Source: an uncultured Planctomycetia bacterium
GTDB taxonomy: Bacteria > Planctomycetota > GCA-002687715 > DRQF01
Length of the DNA: 64,000 bases
Direction: 5' to 3'
Assembly (NCBI GenBank): GCA_964559135.1
Contig: CAZLGG010000006.1
Span: 8,247-72,246 of the forward strand
Part shown: positions 1 through 49,131 of the stretch, piece after piece
Numbering within the stretch: the first letter of the stretch is position 1
Layout: every line of letters begins with the position of its first letter
Notes under the pieces: model-generated
What the model was told of the DNA's origin: nothing
Databases searched by the model: none
What the model saw: only the letters and a program-made list of their open reading frames with translations
Position numbers and translations under genes: made by a program

Positions 1-1
1 C

Positions 2-322
2 TATCGTTTCGGAAATCGCCTGAGGTTCGACGTGGGCGCTCAATACCGGATCCACCCGGCCCGATACGAATCCTACGACCAGACCACGGTCAATCTGCTC
101 CTGGAATTCAACGGCGAATACGGATGGAACGATGAACAGGATGGGCATGATCTGAAGGCCACCGGCGGATTGCAGCTCTTCGTCTCGCCGGGCGTCCAGG
201 TGATCGTGAGTGAGGATCTGCTCTTCGAAGTGGGAGTGCAGATACCTGTCTATCGGGACCTGAACGGACCGCAACTGGGCGTCGACTTCCGAGCAACGGC
301 GGGATTGAGATGGAGATTCTGA
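2..322 (+). CDS. Outer-membrane beta-barrel 'transporter' (phenol MetA-pathway-like family), 3' part only
   Basis: Frame is open from the window edge (YRFGNRLRFDVGAQYR...). Amphipathic beta-strands, LFVSPGVQV...GVQIPVYRDLNGPQL motif and C-terminal Phe (GLRWRF). Confidence 0.65.
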   Translation, partial: YRFGNRLRFDVGAQYRIHPARYESYDQTTVNLLLEFNGEYGWNDEQDGHDLKATGGLQLFVSPGVQVIVSEDLLFEVGVQIPVYRDLNGPQLGVDFRATAGLRWRF

Positions 323-372
323 ACGAAGAGGTTTCCTGTTCGCTCGTCCTCACCCCGAGAAAGGCAACTCTC

Positions 373-735
373 ATGAGACACGCACTTTGGACACTCTTGC
401 CCCTCGTCGCCGCGGGGCTTTTCGCCTGCGGAACCACTCATGACGGCAACACGTCGCCGACCACCTCGGAAGCCGTCCCGTCCGCGAACGCGGACATGCC
501 CGTCGTCGAAATGACCGTGGCCGGCGTCACGTGACCGATATGAGGGGGGGCCCTCAAGAGGGCCCTGGAGCGCCGGTTCGGCGCCAGCCATTACACCTTC
601 GACCTCAACTTGGGCCGCGGACACTTCACGGTTGAGCGCGACCGCCTTCCGACGTTTCAGAGTCTTCGCGAAGCGGTAGCCGACGCCGGTTTCGAGTTGA
701 AATCGGCGAAGATCCCCGGCGCGCCATCACGCTGA
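373..735 (+). CDS. HMA-domain lipoprotein with two in-frame TGA codons (candidate UxxU selenoprotein, 120 aa)
   Basis: Purine-rich GAGAAAGG upstream of ATG 373, signal peptide and lipobox-like GLFA-C. Then VEMTVAGVT-TGA(532)-PI-TGA(541)-GGALKRALERRF...LREAVADAGFELK, stop TGA 733-735. The frame after the TGAs completes an HMA fold. Confidence 0.8.
548..587 (+). promoter_or_regulatory. Two tandem hairpins just 3' of the in-frame TGAs (SECIS-like)
   Basis: GGGCCCT-CAAG-AGGGCCC (548-565) and CTG-GA-GCGCCG-GTT-CGGCGC-CAG (565-587). Confidence 0.55.
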
Positions 736-4982: not shown

Positions 4983-5135
4983 GGTCCATTTCCTCCAGGT
5001 GTAGGGGCGAGGCCAAGGATAGCCAACGTGGGCAGGGCGAAAAACCGACGCGGCGGAGGACCTTCCGTCTCGTTGCGACCCTTGCCTGGGCTCCGCCCCA
5101 GCCCTACGTTGGGGATGACCCAGGAGGAATCGGCC

Positions 5136-6236
5136 ATGACGTCGGACGGATTTCAATATGACGCGGCGGGCGTCGACACGCGCAAGGCCCGTTCCGGATT
5201 GGAAGCTCTCTCTCGATCGATTCGGGACACCCTCTCGTTCCGGGACGATCACACCTTCGGTCGCCCGGCGACGGGATTCGGCTACTACGCCAACGTCCTG
5301 CAGATGCCTCAGGGCGGCGGGCTCGCCATCGCCACGGACGGGGTGGGCACGAAGATCCTCATCGCCGAGAAGACCGGACGCTACGACACGATTCCGATCG
5401 ACATGATCGCGATGAATGTGAACGATCTCATCTGCGTAGGAGCCGATCCCTTCGCGCTCGTGGACTACATTGCCGTGGGGCGCGTGGACGAGGAGGTCTT
5501 CGAAGCGCTCGGACGAGGGCTCCGCGAGGGTGCCCGCCAGTCGGGCATCACGATTCCCGGAGGCGAGATCGCCCAAGTGAAAGAACTCCTCCGAGGCGAA
5601 GGCCCGACGGAAGGGTTCGATCTCGTGGGAACCGCCGTGGGATGGGTGCCCATCGACGAGGTCAATCTGGGCATGGACGTCCAGCCCGGCGATCACGTGA
5701 TCGGTCTACGGTCGAGCGGGCTCCACTCGAACGGCTATACCCTGGCTCGCCGGGTGCTTTTGGAAGATGGCGGCCTGTCCCTGGATACGGAGTTGCCCGA
5801 CCTCGGCCGCTCCCTCGGCGAGGAACTCCTCGAACCCACGAGGATCTACGTCCCCCACGTCCGGGCTCTCGAGCGCGCCGGCCTCCGACCTCATGCACTC
5901 CTCCACATCACGGGGGATGGCTACTGCAACCTCAATCGTGTTCAGGCGGACGTCGGCTTCGTCCTCGATGGACTCCCTTCTCCCCCGCCGATCTTCCAAC
6001 GCATCCAAGACATGGGAGCCGTACCTCCCGAGGAGATGCACTCGGTGTTCAACATGGGCATCGGGTTTTGCCTCGTGGTGGGCGACAAAGACCGGGATCG
6101 AACGCTCGAGGTCCTCCGGTCTTTGGGAGAAGAACCACTCGTGCTGGGGCGAGCCTCCGCGGAGCACCCCAACGAGGTTCTCATGCCTCAGGTGGGCCTC
6201 ATCGGCCGCAAGGATCGCTTCCACCGCGAGGGATGA
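5136..6236 (+). CDS. purM: Phosphoribosylformylglycinamidine cyclo-ligase (AIR synthetase)
   Basis: YDAAGVD, TDGVGTKI, GGEIA, SSGLHSNGY, LHITGDG, FNMGIGF; AGGAGG RBS. Confidence 0.95.
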   Translation: MTSDGFQYDAAGVDTRKARSGLEALSRSIRDTLSFRDDHTFGRPATGFGYYANVLQMPQGGGLAIATDGVGTKILIAEKTGRYDTIPIDMIAMNVNDLICVGADPFALVDYIAVGRVDEEVFEALGRGLREGARQSGITIPGGEIAQVKELLRGEGPTEGFDLVGTAVGWVPIDEVNLGMDVQPGDHVIGLRSSGLHSNGYTLARRVLLEDGGLSLDTELPDLGRSLGEELLEPTRIYVPHVRALERAGLRPHALLHITGDGYCNLNRVQADVGFVLDGLPSPPPIFQRIQDMGAVPPEEMHSVFNMGIGFCLVVGDKDRDRTLEVLRSLGEEPLVLGRASAEHPNEVLMPQVGLIGRKDRFHREG

Positions 6237-17531: not shown

Positions 17532-18698
17532 ATGCCACGCGATGCGCCCTCCTATATCCTCGCGGCCCCTCGATCTCTCTACGTCCACATCCCGTTTTGT
17601 GAATCGAAGTGCTCCTACTGTGCCTTCAATTCGGTGGGACGGGAACATACCCCCGCCGGGCAGATGTCCGCGTACATCGACGCTTTGATCCGCGAACTCC
17701 GTGAGCTGAGAATCACCCAACCCCTCGAAACCCTCTACATCGGTGGCGGGACGCCTTCCTTGCTCGACCGCTCCCTGTGGAACCGCTTGGCCGAAGCTCT
17801 CCACAGCCACGCACCTTTGAAGGCGGACGCCGAGTGGACTCTCGAGATGAACCCCGGGACTCTTCACGACGGAAAACTCCGTGACTACCGACAGGCCGGA
17901 GTCACCCGGATCAGCCTCGGAGCTCAATCTCTCGATCCGTTCATCCTGCGATCGCTCGAGCGCATTCATTCTCCCGCGGATGTCTTCCGCGCCGTGGAGA
18001 AGATCGTCGAGGAGGGTTTTCGATCCTTCAATCTCGATCTCATCTACGGGCTCCCGAATCAGGGCTTGGAGAGTTTCAGACGCGATCTCGAAGCGCTTCT
18101 CGCTCTTGATCCCCCTCATCTCGCTCTCTACAACCTCCAGTTCGAGGATGGGACCACCCTCAGTCTGCAGCGATTGGGCGGGAGCGTGGAGGAAGAGCGA
18201 GAGGATGTGCAGATCGCCATGTTCGAAACCGCTTGCGAACTGACGGCGGCCCGTGGTCTTCTCCAATACGAGATTTCCAACTTTGCTCGTTCCGACCATC
18301 ATGCCCGTCACAACGAGGTCTATTGGAGAAACGAGCCGTATTACGGAATCGGTGCGGGTGCCTGGGGGAGCGTGGGAGGTGTACGTTATCGAAACGTTTG
18401 CTCAGCCGACCGCTACATCGAACGCATCGAAGACGGAGCGTCTCCCCGCGATGAGCAGGACGTCCTGCACCGAGACGCTCTTTTCATCGAATCCCTCGTC
18501 GTCATGCTTCGCCACGTAGACGGCATCGAGAAGTCCCTCATGGAACAACGTTTCGGTTTCGGTTGCCTCGATGAGAAGGAGCCGCTCTTCTCGCGATGGA
18601 TCGACGCGGGTTGGATGCAACGTCACGACGACCGTTGGACCCTCACCCGAGCCGGTCAACTCGTCTCGGACTCTCTCTTTCTCGAGCTCATGCCGTGA
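17532..18698 (+). CDS. hemW: Radical SAM heme chaperone HemW (HemN-like)
   Basis: LYVHIPFCESKCSYCAF (CxxxCxxC), TLYIGGGTPS, RISLGAQS, DLIYGLP, YEISNFA, HNEVYW. Confidence 0.93.
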   Translation: MPRDAPSYILAAPRSLYVHIPFCESKCSYCAFNSVGREHTPAGQMSAYIDALIRELRELRITQPLETLYIGGGTPSLLDRSLWNRLAEALHSHAPLKADAEWTLEMNPGTLHDGKLRDYRQAGVTRISLGAQSLDPFILRSLERIHSPADVFRAVEKIVEEGFRSFNLDLIYGLPNQGLESFRRDLEALLALDPPHLALYNLQFEDGTTLSLQRLGGSVEEEREDVQIAMFETACELTAARGLLQYEISNFARSDHHARHNEVYWRNEPYYGIGAGAWGSVGGVRYRNVCSADRYIERIEDGASPRDEQDVLHRDALFIESLVVMLRHVDGIEKSLMEQRFGFGCLDEKEPLFSRWIDAGWMQRHDDRWTLTRAGQLVSDSLFLELMP

Positions 18699-20166: not shown

Positions 20167-20897
20167 CGTCCGAAAGCCGCTGGTACGAGAAGGCGTTCGG
20201 TCGGGCCTACCTGGACGTCTATGCCCACCGCTCCGAGGAGGCCGCTTTTGCGGAAGTGTCTTGGATTCGTCGCACGACATCCATGAAAACAGGCGACCTC
20301 GTGTTGGATCTGGCCTGCGGCAGCGGACGCCACGCGCGTGCGCTTGCATCGGCGGGACTTCGTTTGGTCGGCGTAGATCTTTCCATGGACCTGCTTCGAA
20401 TCGCAGAAGACGATCTCCAACTCCAATTTCTGCGTGCCGATATGCGGCGTCTTCCCCTGAAGGACGAGGTCTTCGGGCACGTGGTCAATCTCTTCACTTC
20501 CTTCGGGTATTTCGAGTCGGATCAAGAGAATGCGTCGGTGATCGAAGAGGTGGCGAGAGTCTTGCGTCCATCGGGAGGCTTTCTCATGGACTTTCTCAAC
20601 GCACCGGCCGTTGAAAAAGGACTCGTACCTCGGAGTTCGAAAACCGTAGGAGGGCGGGAGTTTGATGAGGAGCGACGCATTACTCCGGGACGTCGCCGCG
20701 TCGAAAAGACGGTCACCTTGATCGAAGGCGGTGTACCCAAGGATCGTTGGAAGGAGTCCGTGCGGCTCTTCGATCGAGATGAAATCGTCTCGATGATGAC
20801 ATCGGCCGGACTCACCGTCGACGCCGTTTTCGGAGGGCTCGATGGGAGAGCCTGGTCGCCCGACGCTCCCCGGCTCGTCGTCGTGGCGCACAAATGA
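20163..20897 (+). CDS. Class I SAM-dependent methyltransferase, NmbA-like (candidate N-methyl-bacillithiol methyltransferase)
   Basis: WYEKAFGRAYLDVYAHR N-terminus, VLDLACGSGRH, GVDLS, ADMR, NLFTSFGYF; ATGA overlap with bshC. Confidence 0.8.
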   Translation: MTSESRWYEKAFGRAYLDVYAHRSEEAAFAEVSWIRRTTSMKTGDLVLDLACGSGRHARALASAGLRLVGVDLSMDLLRIAEDDLQLQFLRADMRRLPLKDEVFGHVVNLFTSFGYFESDQENASVIEEVARVLRPSGGFLMDFLNAPAVEKGLVPRSSKTVGGREFDEERRITPGRRRVEKTVTLIEGGVPKDRWKESVRLFDRDEIVSMMTSAGLTVDAVFGGLDGRAWSPDAPRLVVVAHK

Positions 20898-22348
20898 GTT
20901 CCCCCAACGCTCGTCATTTGGGGCAAGCAGCGATGCGCGGCGACGAGGAGGCGTGGAGTTGGCTTCGTGACTCCACGCAGCCCCCAAGCCAAACGTCGCC
21001 CATCGCCTCCGGTGATCATCCCCACTGGGAGGCTGTGCATTCCGGCGCGATGGCGATCATTGCCGGGCAGCAACCCGGTCTTTATGCCGGCCCCCTCTAC
21101 GGACTCTACAAGGCGGCGGCAGCCGTGATGCGCGCCCGCGAGCTTCGCGAACGCGGAGAAGCGGCCGTCGCGGTCTTTTGGTTGGCCTCGGAGGATCACG
21201 ACCTGGATGAGGCGAACCGCCTCTATCTCCCCGCCGATGACTGGCGGACACACACGCTGCATCGTCTGCCCATCGACACCGTCGGCCGCAGTCTGGACCG
21301 CGTGCAGATGAGTGAGGAACACGTCGAGAAACTGATCGAATGGACACGAGGCTCGAATTCGGGCTCGGTCATCGCAGACCTTCATCCGAGAATCGGTGAA
21401 TCGATCGCATCGTGGACGCGGCGTCTCTACGGGTCGATCTTTGATCCGGACGAGCTGTTGATCGTCGAGCCCCGGGAGTTGGCCGCGCGGTTGAAGGTTC
21501 ATCGCCAGCAACTCATCGCGGAACGCAGGGCGTTGCAAGATGTTCTCGTGGCGAGAGCCGGCGCGATCGAGGATGCGGGATTCGCGCTCCAATTGGGCCG
21601 CCCGGATTCCGACTGGAGTCTCCTTTTCCAGGAGGACGACGCCGGGCGTCGCCGCCGATTGCAGGGGACGGCCAGGGAGTGGGCTGAAGCTCTTGCGAAG
21701 AACCCGGAACGTATCAGTTCCTCCGTGTGGACGCGTCCTTTGGCTCAGCAATGGATCTTTCCGCGAAGCGAGCAGATCTGCGGTCCGGGGGAGCTGGCCT
21801 ACATGGCGCAACTCATTCCCGCTTTCGGGGTCTTGAACCTCGCTCCTCCTACGCTGCGACCGCGCCCCCGTCTGTGGGTGATCGATGAGCAGGACCGAGA
21901 GGATCTGGACCGCCTGGGTCTCGATCCGGGGGGAGTCCTCCAATCCGGAGGCTCGAGTTTGGAGGCCGGGGACATCCTTCCCGCTCCGTGGGCGAAACTG
22001 TTGGATCAGTTGACTTCCATGGAGGAACATCTCCGCGGGACGCCCAAAGATCTCGCGTGGGCGGCGAAAGACCTTGCGGCCATGCGGCGTCAATGGAGGA
22101 AATCGGTGAATTCCCTCGAGAAGACTCTTCGAGGTCGAGCACGAAAAGAAAAGAGGGATGAATTGGCGCGCCGGCATCGTTTGAGGGAAAAGTTGTACCC
22201 GAGAGGTCGGCCCCAGGAGCGGGTCTGGTCGCCGGCCTGCCTGGCGCCGAAGGACCTGAGAGGATTCGGCCGTCAATTGTTGGACCGGATAGCCTCGCTC
22301 GAGTCTGGCCCGGGAATCTGGTTTTGGAAGAGAGACGACGCACCATGA
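20894..22348 (+). CDS. bshC: Bacillithiol biosynthesis cysteine-adding enzyme
   Basis: AGQQPGLYAGPLYGLYKA, VFWLASEDHD, GPGELAY, LYPRGRPQER. Confidence 0.9.
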   Translation: MSSPNARHLGQAAMRGDEEAWSWLRDSTQPPSQTSPIASGDHPHWEAVHSGAMAIIAGQQPGLYAGPLYGLYKAAAAVMRARELRERGEAAVAVFWLASEDHDLDEANRLYLPADDWRTHTLHRLPIDTVGRSLDRVQMSEEHVEKLIEWTRGSNSGSVIADLHPRIGESIASWTRRLYGSIFDPDELLIVEPRELAARLKVHRQQLIAERRALQDVLVARAGAIEDAGFALQLGRPDSDWSLLFQEDDAGRRRRLQGTAREWAEALAKNPERISSSVWTRPLAQQWIFPRSEQICGPGELAYMAQLIPAFGVLNLAPPTLRPRPRLWVIDEQDREDLDRLGLDPGGVLQSGGSSLEAGDILPAPWAKLLDQLTSMEEHLRGTPKDLAWAAKDLAAMRRQWRKSVNSLEKTLRGRARKEKRDELARRHRLREKLYPRGRPQERVWSPACLAPKDLRGFGRQLLDRIASLESGPGIWFWKRDDAP

Positions 22349-23094
22349 GCAAGACCTCCATCCTGGCTTTCGGGGCCCATCCGGACGACGTGGAATTGAA
22401 TGCCGGCGGGCTCTTGGCTCTCGCCGCGGGGCGAGGGGAACGAACCGTCATCTGTCATCTGACGCGAGGTGAGATGGGGACCCGCGGAACACCGGAGATG
22501 AGGGAAGAGGAAGCCCGGACCGCCGCAAAGACCCTGGGTGTTTCCGAGCTGGAGTTCTTGGGACAACCCGACGGATGGATCGAGGAAAATGAGGCGGCGA
22601 AGCGCGCCATCATCAGCGCGCTGCGGCGTCACCGTCCGAGTCTCGTCTTGGCTCCCTATTGGAAGGATCTCCATCCCGACCACGGGGTGACGGGCACCCT
22701 TGTCCGCAAGGCGGCCTTCTTATCCGGGCTCGTTCGCATCGACGACGGGCTTGCCCCATGGCGTCCGGCGCGTGTTCTTTATTACATGTCCCATGACCCC
22801 ATTCCCGCGGATTTGATCGTCGACATTTCTCCCGTCTTCGAGACGAAGAAGTCCGCAGCGCTTTGCTACCGTTCTCAGTTCTACGACCCGGATTCGCGTG
22901 AACCCGAAACCTTCATCTCACGCAGTGAATTCTGGGAGTTCTGGGAAGGCCGCGCATCGTGGTGGGGCCACTTCGTGGGTGTACGGTACGGAGAGGGGTA
23001 CGTCTCGGACGGACCGATCCCGACGCGCAACCCGGTCGAGATGTTTCAAGGGTTCGGCAAGTACAGGAATCCGGACTCGGAGGACGCGGTATGA
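22345..23094 (+). CDS. bshB1: N-acetyl-glucosaminyl-malate deacetylase
   Basis: AFGAHPDDVELNAGG, LTRGEMGTRGT, DLHPDH, VDIS..FETK, CYRSQF; between bshC and bshA. Confidence 0.92.
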   Translation: MSKTSILAFGAHPDDVELNAGGLLALAAGRGERTVICHLTRGEMGTRGTPEMREEEARTAAKTLGVSELEFLGQPDGWIEENEAAKRAIISALRRHRPSLVLAPYWKDLHPDHGVTGTLVRKAAFLSGLVRIDDGLAPWRPARVLYYMSHDPIPADLIVDISPVFETKKSAALCYRSQFYDPDSREPETFISRSEFWEFWEGRASWWGHFVGVRYGEGYVSDGPIPTRNPVEMFQGFGKYRNPDSEDAV

Positions 23095-24242
23095 GAATTG
23101 GAATCGCTTGCTACCCGACGTACGGCGGAAGCGGGGTCGTGGCCACCGAGCTTGGACTCGCTTTGGCGGAGATCGGTCACGAGGTCCACTTCTTGGCCTA
23201 CGAGCCACCGATTCGCCTGACGAGCTATCGGTCGAACATCTTTTATCACCAGGTTGGAGTCCCTGACTATCCGCTCTTTCGATACCCACCCTACGCCCTG
23301 TCGTTGGCGACGAAGATGGCGGAGGTCGTCGACCAGTACGACATCGAGCTGCTTCACGTTCACTACGCGATTCCCCACGCCGCAAGCGCCTGGATGGCGA
23401 AGGAAATGGTGGCTCCCAGACGACTCGGTATCGTGGTGACCTTGCATGGAACCGATATCACGATCGTCGGTCAGGACGCATCCTACAAGAGAGTCACGCG
23501 ATTCACTCTCGACAAAGCCGACGGAGTGACGACTGTGTCGAACTATCTCCGCGATGAAACGCACAAGGTCATCGAGACGAACAAAGACATCGAAGTCATT
23601 CCCAACTTCATCGACCTCAAACGCTTCGACGCCCACCCTTGTCCCGACGCGCAGGCGCTCCATGGAGGAAGCGACGAACTTCTGCTCGTTCATACTTCGA
23701 ATTTCCGCCCCGTGAAGCGGGTGGGAGACGTGGTGGAAGCCATGGCTCTCGTCGCGAAGGACATCTCCGTCAAACTTCTCCTCATCGGAGACGGACCGGA
23801 TCGCCCGGCGATTGAGGACCGGGTCAGGGAGTTGGGTTTGGCGGAAAGGGTGAGTTTTTTGGGGTCACAAGAATCCGTCGAGAGAATTCTTCCCTGCGCG
23901 GATGTCTTCGTCCTGCCTTCGATCTACGAGTCGTTCGGTTTGGCGGCGCTCGAGGCCATGGCCAGCGGACTGCCCGTCGTGGCGACCAATACGGGCGGGA
24001 TTCCCGAGGTGGTCGAGGACGGAGTCACGGGCTTTCTTGTTTCTCCAAGAAACCCGAAGGCCTTGGCTCGAGCGATTCGGGAGATGGCGCTGAACCCGGA
24101 ACGACGCAAGAGCATGGGCCGGGCGGCCCGGGCAAGAGCGGAGAGACTCTTCGATATTCGAAGGATACTTCCGACTTACGTGGCTCACTACGAGCGGGTT
24201 CTCGATGGCCTGGACGGCCGGATTCAGGCAGCAGTCGTGTGA
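23091..24242 (+). CDS. bshA: N-acetyl-alpha-D-glucosaminyl L-malate synthase
   Basis: [60 protein letters not shown]. Confidence 0.97.
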
Positions 24243-25080: not shown

Positions 25081-26226
25081 ATGCCCAGGCGAGTCTATCT
25101 GGATCACGCGGCGTCGAGTCCGCTTCTTCCCGAAGTCGCGGAAGCGATGGGTCGGGTGCAATCGACGGCCATGGGCAATCCAAGCAGCCTCCACTCGGAG
25201 GGGCGGCGTGCCCGCCGGGCCCTGGAGGACGCTCGCGAGACTCTCGCCGCGGCCTTGAACCGCCCGTCGAGGGAGGTGATCTTCACCGGGTCGGCGACCG
25301 AGGCCAACAATGCGGCGATCCTCGGAATCGCACCCGTTCTCGAATCCGCGGGTCGACAGACGATTCTGCTCTCACCGATCGAGCACCCCTCGATCCTGGA
25401 GCCTGCACGGAGGCTGGAGCGCCGCGGTTTCACGCTCAGGTGGATGCCCGTCATGCCGAACGGGGTCGTCGATCTGGAGGCCGCGGAAGCTCTGTTGGAT
25501 GATTCCGTGGGGTTTTCGTCGCTCATGTGGGTGAACAACGAGATCGGGACCGTCCAGCCCGTCCAAGCCTGGGCCGAGGTTTGCACGAACGCAGGCGTGG
25601 TTTTTCATTGCGACGCCGTCCAGGCCCTCGGAAAACAGGTTTGGGAACCACCCGTCGGCGCCTTGTTGACGGTTTCGGCTCACAAGATCGGCGGACCTCG
25701 AGGAGTCGGGGCGTTGATCATGCCGGCCGGCGTGCGGGCGGAGCCTCTTGTGGTGGGGGGGGCGCAAGAGCGGGATCGTCGCGCCGGCACGGAGAACGTG
25801 GTGGGAGCCGCCGGTTTTGCGGCGGCGGCGGCGGCGGTCCGCCGGGAGGAGGCGTCACGTCTTGCCCATCTGGCGGGTTTGGATCGTCTTCTTACGGCGC
25901 GACTCTCCGAGAAGGTCCCCTGCGTCAAATTCAACGTGCCGGAGGGGGCGCCGAGGGCACCCGGCATATGGAACCTCCATTGGCCGGGCCACTACGGCGA
26001 GGCGTTGCTCATTCGATTGGATTTGGAAGGCATCGCGGTCAGCTTGGGCAGCGCGTGCTCCTCGGGGGCGGTGGAGCCTTCACATGTCCTGGAGGCGCTG
26101 CAAAGGGATCGTGAGACCCTGTTCTCTTCGTTTCGGATCTCGGCGGGACGGACCACGACGAGGGAAGACATCGAGCAGTTCGTCACCGTCCTGGCTCGGG
26201 TCGCGCAAGAGGATGACGCAACGTGA
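25081..26226 (+). CDS. iscS: Cysteine desulfurase (IscS/NifS family)
   Basis: YLDHAASSP, GNPSSLH, FTGSATEANN, NNEIGTVQP, HCDAVQA, SAHKIGGP, SLGSACSS. Confidence 0.92.
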   Translation: MPRRVYLDHAASSPLLPEVAEAMGRVQSTAMGNPSSLHSEGRRARRALEDARETLAAALNRPSREVIFTGSATEANNAAILGIAPVLESAGRQTILLSPIEHPSILEPARRLERRGFTLRWMPVMPNGVVDLEAAEALLDDSVGFSSLMWVNNEIGTVQPVQAWAEVCTNAGVVFHCDAVQALGKQVWEPPVGALLTVSAHKIGGPRGVGALIMPAGVRAEPLVVGGAQERDRRAGTENVVGAAGFAAAAAAVRREEASRLAHLAGLDRLLTARLSEKVPCVKFNVPEGAPRAPGIWNLHWPGHYGEALLIRLDLEGIAVSLGSACSSGAVEPSHVLEALQRDRETLFSSFRISAGRTTTREDIEQFVTVLARVAQEDDAT

Positions 26227-26543
26227 ATGTGCGGCTGCGGCGGTGCCGATGCCCCGTCGTTCTCGCCATCAATTGTTGTGCCGAAAAAAAACTTGTTCCC
26301 CATAGAAGTTCTCAAGGTGCGGACCCGTCGAGAGATCGACGCCCAAAAAAAGATGACGCCGCGCGACACGGATCAGATGGGGGGGACACCGGTTGACGCT
26401 GGTGATGCCCGCCTCTATAGTCCGTCCCTGTCCCGCGGTGGTCATGGAACATGTTTCACCGGGCCGGGTGGTGCTTATTCCGACAACATGAGGTGGCCTG
26501 CAAACTAGCAGACGACGGTCGTCGTCTGCCCAATGGGTGGCGT

Positions 26544-27911
26544 ATGTCGAGCAAGAAGAACGAGCGTTTTTGGGACAAGGTTCTGGAAGCCGTCAAGGAA
26601 GTCGTCAGTGGCGAGCAGTTCGAGACCTGGTTCACCAAGACATCCTGCGCGGCGATCCGTGACGACGAGATCGTCGTGGAAGTGCCCAGCAAGTTTTACT
26701 CGGAGTGGTTGCGCCGTCAGTACCTCGAAGTCCTCGAGGAGGCTGTCCAGCGGGTCAGGGGAGTGAACGGCGCTTCGATCAGCTTTCAGATCGCGGCGGT
26801 CGCCCACGCGGGGGCGGGTGACTCCTTGCCACGCGCGGCGCCCTTGCCTCGCAGGAGTCCGAGCCGGGATCGGGGAGGCCATGATCGTGATCGCCTTCCC
26901 CTCAATCCCCAATACACCCTCGAAAACTTTGTCGTCGGGGCATCGAATCGACTGGCCCACGCTGCGTCCTTGGCGGTGATCGAGGATACGGGTCGCGTCT
27001 ACAATCCCCTCTTCCTGTATGGGGGGGTGGGCCTGGGTAAGACCCATCTTCTTCAGGGAATCTGCCACGCGGTGCGCAAGCAGCAGCCGGACGTCCGGAT
27101 TCGTTACATCCCTTGCGAACAGTTCGTCAACCAATTCATCGCGGCCTTGGGCAAGAATCGGCTGGAAGAGTTCCGCGAGCAGCACCGCCGCTTGGACATC
27201 CTCGTCATCGACGACATCCACTTCCTGGCCAGCAAGGACCACACGCAGGAAGAATTCTTCCATACGTTCAACGCGCTCTACAACAACCAGAAGCAGATCA
27301 TCCTTTCGTCGGACAGCGCACCGAAGGACATTCCAACCTTGGAAGATCGTCTGGTTTCCCGGTTCAAGTGGGGGCTGGTGTGCGAGATTGAACCGCCCAC
27401 CTTCGAGACCAGGATGGCGATCGTCCTGAAGAAGGCGCGCCTCTACGGCGTCGAGGTTCCCGATGACGTGGTGGAGTTCATCGCTTCCGCCATTCTCGTG
27501 AATGTCCGGGAACTCGAAGGCGCCGTGACGCGATTTTTGGGTTTTGCACGGATCATGAAGCGTCCCCTGTCCCTCGAGACGGCCAAGGAAGCCCTGGGAG
27601 ATCTGGTGAGTTCCGCGCAACGGCGGGTGACCATCGTCCGCATCGTCGACCTGGTCACCGAGCACTTCGATGTGCGACTGAGCGAGTTGCAATCGAAGAA
27701 GCGGAATCATTCCATCGCACTGCCGCGGCAGGTCTGCATGTTCCTGGCTCGCAAGTACACGAAGCTGTCCCTGGCGGAGATCGGCGGGTTCTTCGGTGGT
27801 CGCGATCATTCCACGGTCATCTACGCGGTGGACAAGATCGACCAGCTCAAGAAGAACGACATCGAACTGCGCGCTTCCCTGCAAACTTTGGAGCGGCGCT
27901 TGGAGTCGTGA
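26544..27911 (+). CDS. dnaA: Chromosomal replication initiator
   Basis: YTLENFVVG, YNPLFLYGGVGLGKTHLL, DDIHFL, QEEFFHTFN, NVRELEGA, GGRDHSTVIYA. Confidence 0.98.
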   Translation: MSSKKNERFWDKVLEAVKEVVSGEQFETWFTKTSCAAIRDDEIVVEVPSKFYSEWLRRQYLEVLEEAVQRVRGVNGASISFQIAAVAHAGAGDSLPRAAPLPRRSPSRDRGGHDRDRLPLNPQYTLENFVVGASNRLAHAASLAVIEDTGRVYNPLFLYGGVGLGKTHLLQGICHAVRKQQPDVRIRYIPCEQFVNQFIAALGKNRLEEFREQHRRLDILVIDDIHFLASKDHTQEEFFHTFNALYNNQKQIILSSDSAPKDIPTLEDRLVSRFKWGLVCEIEPPTFETRMAIVLKKARLYGVEVPDDVVEFIASAILVNVRELEGAVTRFLGFARIMKRPLSLETAKEALGDLVSSAQRRVTIVRIVDLVTEHFDVRLSELQSKKRNHSIALPRQVCMFLARKYTKLSLAEIGGFFGGRDHSTVIYAVDKIDQLKKNDIELRASLQTLERRLES

Positions 27912-27949
27912 GAGGCGGGGCGCACCCCGGCCCACCCCGCGCGATTCGT

Positions 27950-28127
27950 TGTGGATAACCCGTGGCGGCTGAGCCTCTTGCGCACGGTGGGCGCTTCCGT
28001 GGGTGGGCCGAATGCGCACCCGAAGTCTTTACGTCATGGGGGTTTGTCGCACCCGTAGGTGGGTTGGTCCGTGCGGAAAACTCGTGGAATCGGGCCAGGG
28101 ATGGGAGTGTGGAAAAGCTGTGGAGGG
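27950..28127. promoter_or_regulatory. DnaA-box cluster in the dnaA-dnaN spacer
   Basis: Perfect TGTGGATAA (27950-27958), TGCGGAAAA (28072), TGTGGAAAA (28108), TGTGGAGGG (28119). Confidence 0.7.
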
Positions 28128-28305
28128 GATCCCGCGCCCCGTCACCCGAAAGCCGCGCCCCGAGAGTCTCAGGGGGCAAATCCGAACCTCTTGAGCGACC
28201 ATGACTTAGAGTTCACCCCAAAGGGTCGTGCCGGGCTGTTCCTCGCCCCCCTCCGAGCCTATAATCCCGGGGTCCCTCCGACCCTTGAATCATGGGGAAT
28301 CAAGC

Positions 28306-29415
28306 ATGAAATGCAGCGTCGCCCGGAAGAGCCTCCTGGATGGTCTGTCAGCCGTGGGAATGGTGGCCTCGTCTCAACCCATGGGGTATCAACACGTCCT
28401 TCTCCAGGCTGGGGCTGACGGATTTCTGCAACTGGAATGCACGGACGGGGCCATGTCCATTCGCTATCGGGTACCCGCGGAATCCGTGGACGAACCCGGC
28501 GTGGCCGTGGTCCCGGTGCAGAAACTCACCTCTGTCACCAAGGAGTGTCACACGGACAGCCTCCAGATCCAGGCGGATGAAGTGGGCAAGACGAAGGTTC
28601 GGTCCGGCCGCAGTCTCTTCCAGCTTCTCGGTGAACGGGCGGAGGATTTCCCGACACTCACCGACTTTCCCTCCGAGTGCGCCTTTGGAATGGACCGAGC
28701 ACGGCTCCTGCATCTGATGGCGAAAACTCAGTTTTCGGTGGCGCGCGAGCGGTCACGCTTCGCATTCAACGGGGCCAGGCTCGAGATTTCCGGCAGTGAC
28801 GCCCGCATGGTGGCCACGGATGGAAAACGGCTGGCGACGAAAGTGATCCTCATCGACAACAGCGACGGTGTCGAAGCGTCTCCGATCATCCCCGTTCACG
28901 CGCTGCAAGTGTTCGAACGGGTTCTCGCCGAAGAAGACGACCGGATCCAGTTGGCCTTGGACGACACCCACGTGAACCTTCAGACTTCGCGTGCCTTCGT
29001 CTCCGCGCCCTTGCTTCTGGGGCGTTTCCCGGACTATCGCAAGGTCATTCCTCAGGACTGCCCGATCCGAATCGAATTCGATCGACTGGACCTGATTCAA
29101 GCTTTTCGCCAAGCAGCCCTGTTCATCACTGAGGAAACCCGTTCGGTCCGTTTTCAACTGGAAAACGGTCAGTTGAGCATTCAGGCCCAGGCCTTGGATG
29201 CGGGAGAGGCGACGGTCGAATTGGATGCTCCGGATTACACGGACGAAAAGCCCTTCACGATTTCACTGAACCCCCAATTCATGGCGGATGGTCTGAAGGT
29301 CATGGATTCGGATCGCGCCGTGATCGAGTTGACCTCTCCGAGCAACCCGGTGAAGGTGACGGGGGAGCCTGACTTCGTCTACGTCGTCATGCCTGTGACC
29401 ATGCGGAATGGCTGA
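28306..29415 (+). CDS. dnaN: DNA polymerase III beta sliding clamp
   Basis: AEDFPTL, MVATDGKRLA, GRFPDYRKVIP, LNPQFMAD, YVVMP; follows dnaA; TATAAT at 28260. Confidence 0.95.
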   Translation: MKCSVARKSLLDGLSAVGMVASSQPMGYQHVLLQAGADGFLQLECTDGAMSIRYRVPAESVDEPGVAVVPVQKLTSVTKECHTDSLQIQADEVGKTKVRSGRSLFQLLGERAEDFPTLTDFPSECAFGMDRARLLHLMAKTQFSVARERSRFAFNGARLEISGSDARMVATDGKRLATKVILIDNSDGVEASPIIPVHALQVFERVLAEEDDRIQLALDDTHVNLQTSRAFVSAPLLLGRFPDYRKVIPQDCPIRIEFDRLDLIQAFRQAALFITEETRSVRFQLENGQLSIQAQALDAGEATVELDAPDYTDEKPFTISLNPQFMADGLKVMDSDRAVIELTSPSNPVKVTGEPDFVYVVMPVTMRNG

Positions 29416-29737
29416 GCATCCCAAGCGGTCCCCCTGGGGAGCCGATTCCATCGGGGACATCCTCGACACATGGTTGGCCAAGGTGGAACGGGAAACGATG
29501 GGTCCCACCCAGCGTGTCGTGGCGGCATGGCAGGGCGTCATTCGAGAGAACGAGCGATTGAGAAGGACCCGGGTCGCCGCTTTTCGCTCCGGTGTGGCGG
29601 TGATCGAAGTGGCATCCCCGCCCCTGTGCGCGGAGTTGGCCCAATTCCAGCGATCGCAACTGTTGGAACGACTGAACGAATTCATGGAAGGAGACAGGGT
29701 CGTCCGCGATCTGCGGTTCAGACTCGGCGCCTTCTGA
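29408..29737 (+). CDS. DUF721 / DciA-family protein
   Basis: IGDIL...AAW...VIEVASP..CAEL...LLERLN...LRFRLG; between dnaN and gyrB. Confidence 0.8.
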   Translation: MAEHPKRSPWGADSIGDILDTWLAKVERETMGPTQRVVAAWQGVIRENERLRRTRVAAFRSGVAVIEVASPPLCAELAQFQRSQLLERLNEFMEGDRVVRDLRFRLGAF

Positions 29738-32158
<2,421 letters not shown>

Positions 32159-48042: not shown

Positions 48043-49131
48043 TCACGAGATCCCCATTCCCTCCAGGGTGGCATCCAGGTCGGCCAAGAGGCCATCGATA
48101 TCGTTCAGCGTCAGGTCACCGAGGTGACCGATGCGGAAGGTCGTCTCCTTCAAGTCTCCGTAACCCGCTCCGATCCGCTTTCCCCTCTTCAGGAGTTCGT
48201 CCACGAGGGCCGATGGCGAAAGACGTCCGTCCGCCAGGAAGACGCTCTCGCTGGGCGTCATGAATCCGGCGTCTGGAAAAAGAGGAAACCGCTCAGCCAA
48301 GTGGCCTCGCACCCGTTCGGCCAGCGCGAGATGGCGACCCCATCGCTCCTCGAGCCCCTCCTCCCTCAGGATGTGATCGAGTTGAACCCCCAACGCGCGT
48401 AGCAGTGGGATGTTCGTCGTGGCGGGGCACTGACCCTTGGCCGCCATTTTCCGGTAGAGCTGGAAGTCGAAGTAGTGTCCACGGCTCTCCGCCGCCGCGG
48501 AGCGATCCATGGCTCGCGCGCTGACCGTGAAGACGGTGAGTCCCGGGGGCAGCGCCAGGCACTTTTGGGTTCCGGCGAATGCGAGGTCGACGCCCCAAAG
48601 ATCCGTCTCGAAGGGGGCGCCACCGAGGGAGCTCACGCAATCGACGGCCAACAGGACGTCGTCGTAGCGCCGCACCAATTCGCCCAGCTCCGCAATGGGG
48701 TTCAGAACCCCGGTACTCGTCTCGCTATGCACCGCCGTCACGAGGTCGTACGCGCCGGTGGCCAACTCCCGGTCCACCTCCGCGAGGTCGATGGGTTTTC
48801 CCGCCGCGACCCCAAGGCGGGTTGCCGGCCGTCCGCATTTCACCGCGGTCTGGTACTGACGCTCGCTGAAGGCGCCGCAGACGGTCGATAGAATCTTCTT
48901 GCCGGAAAGATTGCGAACAGCCGCTTCCATGAGCCCGGTCGCGGATGAGCAGGCGACGAAGCACTCCTGCTGCGTGCGGAAGAGTTCACCCAGGTCCTCG
49001 AAGATCCGGCGCGTGATCGCCTCGATGCGGGGTCCTCGATGCGAGATGACGGGCTGTGAGAGGACGTGAAGGATTTCGGGTCGCACTTCCGTGGGGCCTG
49101 GAATGAAAAGATGGGGCACGTCGCGTTTCAT
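48043..49131 (-). CDS. Class V aminotransferase (serine/alanine-glyoxylate type)
   Basis: LFIPGPTEV, HSETSTGVLN, VDCVSSLGG, GTQKCLALPPG, FRIGHLG. Confidence 0.92.
   Translation of the reverse strand: MKRDVPHLFIPGPTEVRPEILHVLSQPVISHRGPRIEAITRRIFEDLGELFRTQQECFVACSSATGLMEAAVRNLSGKKILSTVCGAFSERQYQTAVKCGRPATRLGVAAGKPIDLAEVDRELATGAYDLVTAVHSETSTGVLNPIAELGELVRRYDDVLLAVDCVSSLGGAPFETDLWGVDLAFAGTQKCLALPPGLTVFTVSARAMDRSAAAESRGHYFDFQLYRKMAAKGQCPATTNIPLLRALGVQLDHILREEGLEERWGRHLALAERVRGHLAERFPLFPDAGFMTPSESVFLADGRLSPSALVDELLKRGKRIGAGYGDLKETTFRIGHLGDLTLNDIDGLLADLDATLEGMGIS

What the first reader, a model, noticed from the sequence alone, without database searches (positions are those of the whole stretch)
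373..735. HMA-domain lipoprotein with a double-TGA metal site: candidate UxxU selenoprotein hidden from the ORF track
Seen in sequence: the track stops this ORF at TGA 532-534, but the same frame continues ACG-TGA-CCG-ATA-TGA-GGG-GGG-GCC-CTC-AAG-AGG... with no further stop until 733-735. The product is MRHALWTLLPLVAAGLFAC...VEMTVAGVT-U-PI-U-GGALKRALERRFGASHYTFDLNLGRGHFTVERDRLPTFQSLREAVADAGFELK. Established knowledge: HMA/MerP/CopZ domains use GM-x-C-x-x-C and end with an 'L.eAV.dAG(F/Y)' helix. Both TGAs sit exactly at the two Cys positions and the downstream half keeps the HMA pattern. Inference: the protein has two selenocysteines three residues apart in a metal-binding loop, on a lipid anchor. 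Single-Sec metal-binding proteins and UxxU redox proteins (SelL type) are known; I am not aware of a characterised UxxU HMA domain. A diselenol site would be expected to bind Hg, Cu(I), Ag or Au very tightly. Two nonsense mutations hitting only the two Cys codons of an otherwise intact gene are unlikely. SECIS-dependent Cys insertion at UGA is the alternative recoding explanation.
Basis: partly seen in the sequence, partly recalled or inferred. Interest (0 to 1): 0.93.

Follow-up and report, generated by a model that had tools for sequence, protein, structure and literature searches.

The report
Two-selenocysteine metal-binding lipoprotein gene
This is a real small gene for an exported metal-binding protein whose two metal-holding cysteines are replaced by two UGA codons that are most likely read as selenocysteine; it belongs to a previously unannotated family found mainly in Planctomycetota next to mercury-type regulator and transport genes.

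Summary
The ORF at 373-735 has in-frame TGAs at 532-534 and 541-543.

- **Not an error or a pseudogene.** Both TGAs are present in four assemblies of this species. They recur at the same two positions in eight further lineages (30-72% protein identity). Two Methylomirabilota-type relatives have Cys at the first position and TGA at the second.
- **The tail is translated.** dN/dS after the second TGA is 0.18-0.28.
- **RNA signal.** Two tandem hairpins follow the second TGA in all eight UxxU sequences aligned. The second has compensatory changes and a G-first apical loop, as in bacterial SECIS elements.
- **Fold.** A family profile matches HMA domains (ATP7B 4e-24, MerP 2e-8).
- **Operon.** merR (three Hg-type Cys), then an outer-membrane channel, then this gene. 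Relatives sit beside MerA or a MerT fusion.

Most likely it is a MerR-controlled, lipid-anchored, periplasmic Hg(II)/soft-metal binder with a diselenolate site.

Not shown: selA/B/C/D in the genome, and Sec rather than SECIS-dependent Cys insertion.

UxxU HMA selenoproteins have already been predicted (NCBIfam NF041115). This protein scores far below that model's cut-off, so it is a new variant of a known kind.

The parts
1..322 (+). 3' end of the upstream outer-membrane channel gene (Pfam PF13557, Phenol_MetA_deg family; 369 aa in full; it has its own lipobox, LLTGC). The window starts inside this gene. The merR gene and its promoter lie further upstream, outside the window.
   Evidence: An OMP gene immediately followed by the HMA gene was seen at L001-L012 and L014.
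357..364 (+). Ribosome-binding-site-like GAGAAAGG, 8 nt upstream of the ATG at 373. The orthologue has GGAAAGG at the same place.
373..735 (+). Complete coding sequence of a 120-residue UxxU HMA lipoprotein (stop TGA at 733-735). Orthologues start and stop at the same positions.
373..429 (+). Signal peptide with a lipobox; the Cys19 codon is at 427-429 (LVAAGLFAC|G). It is followed by a poorly conserved linker up to about residue 40.
   Evidence: a Cys at the end of the hydrophobic segment is conserved in 8 of 10 family members. This is a pattern seen by eye; no signal-peptide predictor was available.
505..702 (+). HMA (heavy-metal-associated, beta-alpha-beta-beta-alpha-beta) domain, residues about 45-110.
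532..534 (+). First in-frame UGA. It sits at the first Cys position of the HMA G-x-T-C-x-x-C motif.
   Evidence: Relatives L011 and L014 have Cys (TGC) here.
541..543 (+). Second in-frame UGA, at the second Cys position of the motif. It is TGA in all 12 family loci examined.
547..566 (+). Hairpin 1: an 8-bp G+C-rich stem (GGGGCCCU/AGGGCCCU) with loop CAAG. It starts 12 nt after UGA1 and 3 nt after UGA2. It is kept in all 8 UxxU sequences, in two registers, and is absent from the CxxU relatives.
568..586 (+). Hairpin 2, the SECIS-like element. In the window the stem is 6 bp (570-575 with 579-584); it is 8 bp in most relatives. The apical loop is GUU at 576-578. The loop starts 32 nt after UGA2 and 41 nt after UGA1.
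   Evidence: 96.9% of cells are paired, three pairs show compensatory changes, and G is the first loop base in 8 of 8. L011 and L014 have their hairpin at the same distance from their single UGA.

Best explanation
The gene encodes a 120-residue exported lipoprotein with a single HMA domain. In that domain the two metal-ligand positions (G-V-T-U-P-I-U) are UGA codons, recoded co-translationally and most probably as selenocysteine. Recoding is directed by the conserved stem-loops immediately downstream.

Hairpin 2 has the hallmarks of a bacterial SECIS. Hairpin 1 occurs only in the two-UGA members. It is either the SECIS for the first UGA or a collapsible spacer that keeps hairpin 2 within reach of both UGAs.

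The gene is the last of a three-gene operon: merR, then an outer-membrane channel (PF13557), then this gene. The operon is driven by a MerR-type promoter with a 20-bp spacer containing a dyad. The regulator carries the three Cys that coordinate Hg(II) in MerR.

The proposed working model is as follows. Hg(II), or another very soft metal ion, switches on the operon. The lipid-anchored protein then captures the ion in the periplasm with a linear diselenolate site. It either sequesters the ion or hands it on. In relatives the likely recipients are a MerT-type importer and MerA; here it is presumably the partner outer-membrane channel.

Shown: the two UGAs are conserved, the downstream part is under purifying selection, the RNA structure is conserved with covariation, the domain is HMA, and the operon context holds. 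Inferred: the residue inserted is Sec, the metal is Hg, and the direction of metal traffic.
For: - **Conservation of both UGAs.** They are present in eight further lineages at 30-72% protein identity.
- **Cys/UGA pairing.** CxxU relatives have Cys aligned with UGA1.
- **Purifying selection.** dN/dS after UGA2 is 0.18-0.28. dS falls to 0.18 in codons 58-71, against about 1.0 in the rest of the downstream region, which indicates an RNA constraint.
- **RNA structure.** RNAalifold and pair counting both find two tandem hairpins. Hairpin 2 is 96.9% paired, with three compensatorily changing pairs. At most 1 of 500 shuffles reaches the observed covariation score, and slid controls drop to 24-59% paired.
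- **Stability control.** The fold is more stable than synonymous recodings in all 9 sequences tested, the 8 UxxU sequences plus CxxU L011 (z from -1.0 to -2.9).
- **SECIS rule.** G is the first apical-loop base in 8 of 8, matching the bacterial SECIS rule quoted in PMC13582414 and PMC1976440.
- **HMA fold.** Family profile against PDB: ATP7B 4e-24, CopA 1.8e-14, MerP 2e-8, NmerA 1.3e-6, with the C-x-x-C columns aligned.
- **Regulator.** The best PDB match is Hg-MerR of Bacillus megaterium, 4UA1 (100.8 bits), with all three Hg-ligand Cys aligned. The best NCBIfam model is TIGR02051 MerR.
- **Promoter.** The MerR-type promoter and dyad are conserved in three lineages.
- **Mercury genes in relatives' loci.** MerA above its equivalog cut-off in L010 (504 against 454 bits) and a MerT/CopZ/HMA fusion in L008.
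- **No reassignment.** TGA is the normal stop codon here.
- **Phylum-level precedent.** Some Planctomycetes have complete Sec machinery (PMC4807772).
Against: - No selA, selB, selC or selD lies in the 64-kb window or in any fetched locus. The rest of the genome could not be searched.
- No all-Cys full-length homologue of this family was found, so the classical Sec/Cys-pair criterion rests on the CxxU relatives and on generic HMA domains.
- Hairpin 1 lacks the apical-loop G rule in 4 of 8 sequences.
- Hairpin 2 lies 41 nt after UGA1, beyond the 16-37 nt range that I recall for bSECISearch (from my own knowledge).
- The window protein alone scores below Pfam's HMA gathering threshold (19.5 against 24.8 bits).
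- This lineage has no merT or merA next to the operon.
- PbrR-type Pb sensors share the same three-Cys spacing, to my recollection, so the metal is not settled.
Confidence: 0.6

Rival explanations
1. The UGAs are recoded in a SECIS- and SelB-dependent way, but one or both are read as cysteine by a tRNA-ReC (SelC*)-type tRNA. The mature site would then be CxxC, CxxU or UxxC rather than UxxU.
For: PMC13582414 reports tRNA-ReC-like tRNAs in about 56% of genomes carrying UxxU [NiFeSe] hydrogenases, against about 2% of other Sec-type genomes. Position 1 is Cys in the CxxU relatives, so Cys is clearly functional there.
Against: There is no positive evidence for such a tRNA here: no tRNA at all lies in the window or the fetched loci. 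If Cys were wanted, a single TGA-to-TGC/TGT change would supply it without the cost of recoding. Yet none of nine UxxU lineages, and no strain variant, shows that change at either position.
Confidence: 0.15
2. The UxxU pair is mainly a redox centre (a diselenide/diselenol couple) in a periplasmic electron relay, not a metal-binding site. The HMA fold would serve only as a scaffold.
For: Relatives fuse UxxU-HMA domains to thioredoxin-like domains with WCAPC or CHLC motifs (L007, L008, L010). They also sit beside Thioredoxin_3, glutaredoxin, DsbH-like and DsbD_TM genes. Most known selenoproteins are oxidoreductases (PMC13188914).
Against: The neighbours are equally well explained as reductants that keep a metal-binding diselenol reduced in the oxidising periplasm. 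The regulator is a metal sensor of the MerR type. MerA, MerT, a P-type ATPase, CzcB, OEP and Cation_efflux genes fill the relatives' loci. The window lineage has no thioredoxin gene in the operon.
Confidence: 0.15
3. The module handles Cu(I), Ag(I), Au(I), Cd(II) or Pb(II) rather than Hg(II). That is, it is a CopZ/CusF-like periplasmic chaperone under a CueR/CadR/PbrR-like regulator.
For: The best NCBIfam hits of the HMA protein are CopZ models. CueR, ZntR and CadR-PbrR models also match the regulator at 103-112 bits. The regulator is below the MerR equivalog cut-off (131 against 151 bits). Relatives' loci contain CsoR-type, CzcB and P-type ATPase genes.
Against: MerR is the top model, and Hg-MerR the top solved structure, by a clear margin (100.8 bits against 74 or less for CadR/CueR). 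CueR lacks the first Cys (from my own knowledge). A bona fide MerA and a MerT fusion are the specific partners seen in relatives.
Confidence: 0.2
4. It is a decaying pseudogene or a sequencing/assembly artefact, and only the 53-residue N-terminal peptide is made.
For: Gene callers stop at the first TGA in every database record.
Against: The sequence is identical in four independent assemblies. Both TGAs are conserved in eight more lineages. There are no frameshifts or extra stops. dN/dS downstream is 0.18-0.28, and the downstream RNA hairpins are conserved.
Confidence: 0.02

Closest known systems
NCBIfam NF041115 'UxxU_metal_bind', metal-binding (seleno)protein. It is listed as 'putative mercuric reductase', UxxU, two Sec, predicted by Zhang & Gladyshev 2007 (PMC1976440), in the table of PMC13188914.
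   Same: An HMA-type small metal-binding domain in which both Cys of the CxxC motif are Sec (UxxU). It is predicted only, with no biochemical characterisation.
   Different: The window protein scores 18.5 bits against a 95-bit cut-off. The best family member reaches only E 7e-10. The family here has a signal peptide and lipobox, and often an extra C-terminal domain of about 90 aa. It is always paired with a PF13557 outer-membrane gene.
MerP (TIGR02052), the periplasmic Hg(II)-binding protein of mer operons, including the 'MerP' selenoprotein candidates in the GOS metagenome (PMC2398784).
   Same: An exported single HMA domain with a two-ligand site at the loop-1/helix-1 junction, expressed under a MerR-type regulator. 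A family-profile search finds MerP structures 1AFI and 1OSD at about 2-4e-8.
   Different: It is not a MerP equivalog (15.6 against 92.55 bits). It is lipid-anchored rather than soluble. Both ligands are UGA-encoded. There is no adjacent merT or merA in this lineage; the partner is an outer-membrane channel.
MerT-family and MerT/CopZ-fusion heavy-metal transport selenoproteins (NF045683; Haft bioRxiv 10.1101/2022.07.06.499078) and the Sec-containing HMA domain of E1-E2 cation ATPases (UxxC).
   Same: Sec replaces a metal-ligand Cys in mercury or soft-metal trafficking proteins. A MerT/zf-CopZ/HMA fusion, in its Cys form, lies next to the family member in L008.
   Different: Those proteins have one Sec and are membrane transporters. 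This one is a separate soluble-domain lipoprotein with two.
[quoted passage not shown]
   Same: Two UGA codons three residues apart at a metal-ligand CxxC site in bacteria. CxxU and UxxU forms interconvert while the downstream SECIS stays fixed.
   Different: In the hydrogenases a single SECIS is proposed to serve both UGAs. Here the UxxU members carry an additional conserved hairpin between the UGAs and the SECIS-like hairpin. The protein family and the metal are unrelated.
SelL (UxxU, thioredoxin fold; aquatic animals) and Prx-like UxxU proteins.
   Same: A UxxU motif able to form a diselenide.
   Different: Those are redox proteins with a thioredoxin fold, not HMA, and they use a eukaryotic or different SECIS context. 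The resemblance is limited to the motif.

Membership tests
HMA domain (Pfam PF00403) | A sequence-profile match over the whole domain of about 62 residues. | tested here: met
   The single sequence gives 19.5 bits over profile positions 2-62 of 62, below the gathering score of 24.8. A profile of the ten-member family hits solved HMA domains: ATP7B 4e-24, CopA 1.8e-14, MerP 2e-8, NmerA 1.3e-6.
HMA domain (Pfam PF00403) | Two metal-ligand residues in a G-M/x-T-C-x-x-C motif at the end of strand 1 and start of helix 1. | tested here: met
   The two UGA codons align exactly with the two Cys of GMTCxxC in the ATP7B, CopA and MerP alignments.
Bacterial selenoprotein gene | An in-frame UGA conserved among orthologues, with conserved coding sequence on both sides. 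| tested here: met
   Both UGAs are conserved in nine UxxU lineages. dN/dS downstream is 0.18-0.28.
Bacterial selenoprotein gene | A SECIS stem-loop just downstream of the UGA, with G in the first or second apical-loop position. | tested here: met
   Hairpin 2 is 96.9% paired, has three compensatory pairs, and has G as the first loop base in 8 of 8. bSECISearch itself was not available.
Bacterial selenoprotein gene | Homologues with Cys aligned to the UGA position. | tested here: met
   L011 and L014 have TGC at position 1. Generic HMA domains have Cys at both positions. No all-Cys member of this particular family was found.
Bacterial selenoprotein gene | selA, selB, selC (tRNA-Sec) and selD present in the same genome. 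| not testable with these tools
   None lies in the window or the fetched loci. The only AIRS-family gene, at 5130-6233, is PurM. Sec machinery is reported in some Planctomycetes (PMC4807772).
Bacterial selenoprotein gene | Selenium shown in the polypeptide (75Se labelling or mass spectrometry). | not testable with these tools
   This needs an experiment.
NCBIfam NF041115 UxxU_metal_bind | A score at or above the curated cut-off of 95 bits. | tested here: not met
   The window protein scores 18.5 bits. Seven of ten family members match weakly, with a best E-value of 7.4e-10.
MerP (TIGR02052) | A score at or above the curated cut-off of 92.55 bits. | tested here: not met
   15.6 bits.
mer (mercury resistance) operon | A MerR regulator with the three Hg(II)-ligand Cys and a long-spacer promoter containing a dyad operator. 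| tested here: met
   The Cys are at residues 80, 115 and 124 (alignment numbering), and all three align with those of 4UA1 and 5CRL. The promoter is TTGACC, a 20-nt spacer with the dyad CTGTAG/CTACGG, then TAGAAT. TIGR02051 is the best model but falls below its cut-off (131 against 151 bits).
mer (mercury resistance) operon | merT (or another importer) and merA in the operon. | tested here: not met
   They are absent from the window lineage: the operon is merR, OMP, HMA, and then an unrelated Glycos_transf_4 (MraY/WecA-type) glycosyltransferase gene follows. They are present near family members elsewhere: MerA in L010 and a MerT fusion in L008.
Bacterial lipoprotein | An N-terminal signal peptide ending in a lipobox with an invariant Cys. 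| tested here: met
   The window has LVAAGLFAC|G. Orthologues have LLAC, LWAC, LAGC, FLGC, LALAC and ALGC. Eight of ten members keep the Cys. This rests on the pattern only; no LipoP or SignalP was available.

The most novel reading that the evidence does not exclude
Planctomycetota, and in a one-Sec form Methylomirabilota, have a selenium-based envelope system for mercury or other soft metals. It is a MerR-switched pair made of a dedicated outer-membrane channel and a lipid-anchored HMA protein whose diselenolate site binds the metal far more tightly than any thiol site.

Its synthesis depends on two adjacent Sec insertions. These are made possible by a tandem-hairpin recoding signal, in which hairpin 1 acts as a second SECIS or as a collapsible spacer. 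The same lineages build relatives with four Sec in one polypeptide (HMA-HMA-thioredoxin fusions) downstream of MerA.
Probability: 0.35. Interest if true: 0.75.

Novelty: new variant of a known kind. Interest (0 to 1): 0.58.

Why it matters
- **Annotation.** The family is invisible in current annotation. Every database record holds only a 41-74-residue stub or a headless C-terminal fragment. Some fragments are named 'copper chaperone CopZ' or 'heavy-metal-associated domain-containing protein'.
- **Chemistry.** A diselenolate HMA site would be one of very few natural cases where selenium is used to bind a metal rather than for redox catalysis. It ties selenium use to mercury handling in hydrothermal, subsurface and mat Planctomycetota.
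- **Recoding mechanism.** The CxxU and UxxU forms differ by one extra hairpin. This gives a clean natural experiment on how bacteria decode two UGA codons nine bases apart, a question left open for UxxU hydrogenases (PMC13582414).
- **Practical interest.** Such a domain could be useful as a very high-affinity Hg, Ag or Au binder.

Tried and rejected
- **Word-indexed protein search with the Cys-substituted protein.** Only the window's own truncated ORF came back.
- **Exhaustive HMMER search of 1.84 billion representatives with the 63 residues after UGA2.** Only four spurious multi-stretch hits to long proteins.
- **Metagenome scan.** It gave only a second copy of the L003 species.
- **Rfam.** Nothing at gathering threshold, and only noise at E up to 10 over 480-680. 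To my knowledge there is no general bacterial SECIS family in Rfam.
- **tRNA-Sec.** ARAGORN found no tRNA in the window or in nine loci.
- **Other selenoprotein genes in the window.** A GC3-aware TGA read-through scan gave only neighbouring genes or antisense frames.
- **Sec machinery in the window.** Pfam scans of 20 large ORFs found none. The AIRS-family gene is PurM, not SelD.
- **Structure prediction.** The fold assignment therefore rests on profile matches.
- **Sigma-70 promoter scan.** It found nothing because it allows only 16-18-nt spacers. The MerR-type 20-nt-spacer promoter was read by eye and confirmed by conservation.
- **Distant OMP homologue in Limnocylindria (L013).** It has no HMA neighbour.
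- **Membership of NF041115 and of MerP.** Both were considered and rejected on score.

Full report
**1. The observation**

The sequence is as described. From ATG 373 the frame reads MRHALWTLLPLVAAGLFAC...VEMTVAGVT, then TGA (532-534), CCG ATA, TGA (541-543), and then stays open for 63 more codons to the stop TGA at 733-735. The mechanical ORF list stops at 534. TGA is the ordinary stop codon in this genome: 17 of 21 Pfam-confirmed genes in the window end in TGA. Any read-through must therefore be site-specific.

**2. Not an error and not a pseudogene**

The same DNA, with both TGAs, is found in a 117-kb ENA contig and in a Logan contig of another run. Logan contigs from four runs cover 521-586 (hydrothermal-vent, subsurface and microbial-mat metagenomes, plus one unlabelled). 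Two of these are diverged strains. None shows a change at either TGA.

A GTDB Planctomycetota MAG (HyVt-576, L003) and a JGI contig (L004) carry a 72%-identical orthologue reading VAGVT*PI*GGALKRALERRFGA. I then used homologues of the upstream outer-membrane gene as a handle and looked at what lies downstream of them. In every Planctomycetota-type locus the next gene is a 'short ORF' that, read through, is the same protein with the same two TGAs:

| Locus | Sequence around the TGAs |
|---|---|
| L005 | GVT*PI*GG |
| L006 | GVT*PI*AG |
| L007 | GIT*PM*AG |
| L008 | GVA*PV*AG |
| L009 | GVT*PL*AG |
| L010 | GVT*SM*GG |
| L012 | GVT*PI*AG |

Two Methylomirabilota-type relatives (L011, L014) read GMQ-C-SL-*. 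They have Cys at the first position and TGA at the second.

Between the window and its two closest orthologues, dN/dS after the second TGA is 0.18-0.28. That is lower than in the N-terminal linker. The tail is therefore translated and under selection.

**3. The recoding signal**

Immediately after the second TGA, every UxxU member folds into two tandem hairpins. RNAalifold predicts both without guidance.

*Hairpin 2* (window 568-586):
- It is paired in 96.9% of cells.
- Three of its eight pairs change on both sides (G-C to A-U, A-U to U-A).
- At most 1 of 500 column shuffles reaches the observed covariation score, and sliding the partner columns drops pairing to 24-59%.
- Its apical loop begins with G in 8 of 8 sequences (GUU, GGC, GUC, GGU, GGUCU). 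That is the conserved feature of bacterial SECIS elements (PMC1976440 legend; PMC13582414).
- The CxxU relatives have their single hairpin at the same distance from their single UGA (31 against 32 nt).

*Hairpin 1* (547-566):
- It starts 12 nt after UGA1.
- It is kept in all eight UxxU sequences through two different pairing registers.
- It is missing in the CxxU relatives.
- Its loop does not consistently obey the G rule.

*Controls.* Holding the protein sequence fixed and redrawing synonymous codons, each native sequence is more stable than its recodings (z from -1.0 to -2.9 in nine sequences). Synonymous divergence collapses to 0.18 in codons 58-71, against about 1.0 further downstream.

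I read hairpin 2 as the SECIS. Hairpin 1 is an addition tied to the first UGA. It is either a second SECIS or a foldable spacer that keeps hairpin 2 within reach of a ribosome paused at either UGA. That last step is inference.

**4. The protein**

With Cys in place of the stops, the window protein hits Pfam HMA over the whole domain, but below the gathering score (19.5 against 24.8 bits). It also hits solved HMA domains, with the two positions aligned to GMTCxxC. A profile of ten family members is unambiguous: ATP7B 4e-24, CopA 1.8e-14, MerP 2e-8, NmerA 1.3e-6.

The N-terminus is a signal peptide ending in a lipobox Cys in 8 of 10 members. This is pattern only; no predictor was available. The window form and its two closest orthologues (L003/L004 and L005) are the minimal version, 120 aa. 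More distant members add an unassigned C-terminal domain of about 90 residues.

**5. Context and likely function**

In the parent contig the gene is the third of three co-directional genes. They are merR (133 aa), a PF13557 'Phenol_MetA_deg' outer-membrane protein (369 aa, with a lipobox of its own), and this gene. An unrelated Glycos_transf_4 (MraY/WecA-type) glycosyltransferase gene follows.

*The regulator.* Its best solved relative is Hg(II)-MerR of Bacillus megaterium (4UA1, 100.8 bits), followed by Tn501 MerR. All three Hg-ligand Cys are aligned, and CadR, CueR and PbrR score lower. TIGR02051 MerR is the best NCBIfam model, although below its cut-off. Five of six family-linked regulators keep the Cys triad.

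*The promoter.* Upstream of merR lies TTGACC, then a 20-nt spacer holding the dyad CTGTAG/CTACGG, then TAGAAT. It is conserved, with a co-varying dyad, in L003 and L006. This is the hallmark layout of MerR-family promoters (my own knowledge).

*Relatives' loci.* They add the rest of a mercury or soft-metal toolkit:
- A MerA that passes its equivalog cut-off (504 against 454 bits) lies directly upstream, in the same operon, of a four-TGA HMA-HMA-thioredoxin protein in L010.
- A MerT/zf-CopZ/HMA fusion sits in L008.
- Thioredoxin_3, glutaredoxin, DsbH-like, DsbD_TM, YHS, CzcB/OEP, Cation_efflux, ArsP and P-type ATPase genes also occur.

The best-supported model is therefore a MerR-switched, lipid-anchored periplasmic binder of Hg(II), or of another very soft ion, with a two-selenolate site. 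It works with its partner outer-membrane channel, and in other lineages with MerT and MerA. Periplasmic thioredoxins would keep the pair reduced. The identity of the metal and the direction of traffic are inferred.

**6. What could not be shown**

No tRNA, selA, selB or selD lies in the window or in any fetched locus. The AIRS-family gene at 5130-6233 is PurM. The rest of the genome was out of reach. Some Planctomycetes do have complete Sec machinery (PMC4807772).

SECIS-dependent Cys insertion by tRNA-ReC is enriched in genomes with UxxU hydrogenases (PMC13582414). It cannot be excluded for one or both codons.

**7. Comparison with what is known**

The following already exist as predictions:
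- NCBIfam holds NF041115 'UxxU_metal_bind, metal-binding (seleno)protein'. It derives from the 'putative mercuric reductase' UxxU candidate of Zhang & Gladyshev 2007.
- Sec forms of MerP, MerT and the HMA domain of P-type ATPases have been predicted.
- UxxU metal sites were reported in 2026 for Group 4 hydrogenases.

None of these has been characterised biochemically. The family here does not reach the cut-off of NF041115 (18.5 against 95 bits; best member E 7e-10) or of MerP (15.6 against 92.55 bits). It is exported and lipidated, is always paired with an outer-membrane channel gene, and carries a tandem-hairpin signal. No all-Cys member was found. In public protein sets it exists only as stubs and headless fragments.

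**8. Verdict**

This is a real, conserved, doubly recoded gene. It is a new variant of an already predicted kind, the Sec-containing HMA metal binder. Interest is moderate to high: it is not a new principle, but it is an unannotated family with a clear operon logic. It also offers an unusually clean handle on how two adjacent UGA codons are decoded.

Noticed in passing
L007:5032-6234 (+) and L010:17-1084 (-): Single reading frames with four in-frame TGAs each. L007 reads HMA(GIT*PM*), a middle domain, HMA('GAT*MA*'), then a thioredoxin-like domain (WCAPC). L010 reads HMA('GMT*GMG*', a UxxxU spacing), HMA('GAT*MG*'), then a thioredoxin-like domain, directly downstream of a bona fide MerA. If all four are recoded, these would be four-Sec bacterial proteins. 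Gene callers split them into 3-4 ORFs.
   Followed up: partly
L008:6921-7613 (+): A second double-TGA lipoprotein in the same locus ('LGIT*LG*PNS'): an HMA domain fused to a thioredoxin-like domain (FCHLC). It lies next to a 391-aa zf-CopZ/MerT/HMA fusion in its Cys form (GMTCESC).
   Followed up: partly
P0086-P0122; L011:5049-5585; L014:1297-1836: Dozens of Rokubacteria/NC10 (Methylomirabilota) proteins of 123-159 aa, some named 'copper chaperone CopZ' or 'heavy-metal-associated domain-containing protein', all begin at (M/V)SKSLGRLD. They are headless fragments of CxxU proteins (GGMQ-C-SL-U) truncated at the TGA. Here too the gene follows a PF13557 outer-membrane gene, and it precedes an ArsP_1 permease.
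   Followed up: partly
window 26451-32155 (+), with GC skew turning near 20 kb: dnaA (26451-27908), dnaN (28228-29412) and gyrB (29750-32155). Cumulative GC skew reaches its minimum at about 16-20 kb and rises afterwards. The window therefore probably spans the chromosomal replication origin, and the selenoprotein operon is chromosomal rather than on a mobile element.
   Followed up: partly
window 20894-22345 (+) and 22959-24239 (+): A BshC-like protein (bacillithiol biosynthesis; Rossmann-like_BshC 3e-38) lies close to a GT4 glycosyltransferase and a radical-SAM gene (17532-18695). This hints at a bacillithiol-type low-molecular-weight thiol in a planctomycete.
   Followed up: no
L001:2318-8422 (-); L005:1-3746 (-): Upstream of merR, on the opposite strand, lie two BrxC_BrxD-family ATPase genes, a gene without a Pfam hit, and a DEAD/Helicase_C (Cas3-like C-terminal) helicase. 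This looks like a defence-system-like cluster, and it is conserved next to the metal operon in two lineages.
   Followed up: no
L001:8904-10013 (window 1-322 is its 3' end): The PF13557 outer-membrane protein has a lipobox of its own (VLLTGC) and a C-terminal aromatic residue (…RWRF). It has more than 75 homologues, mostly Planctomycetota, at 25-84% identity. A role for this family in metal traffic has not, to my knowledge, been described.
   Followed up: partly
window 25081-26223 (+) and 48046-49131 (-): Two class-V aminotransferase (cysteine desulfurase / selenocysteine lyase type) genes. They are not SelA. Any link to selenium metabolism is untested.
   Followed up: no
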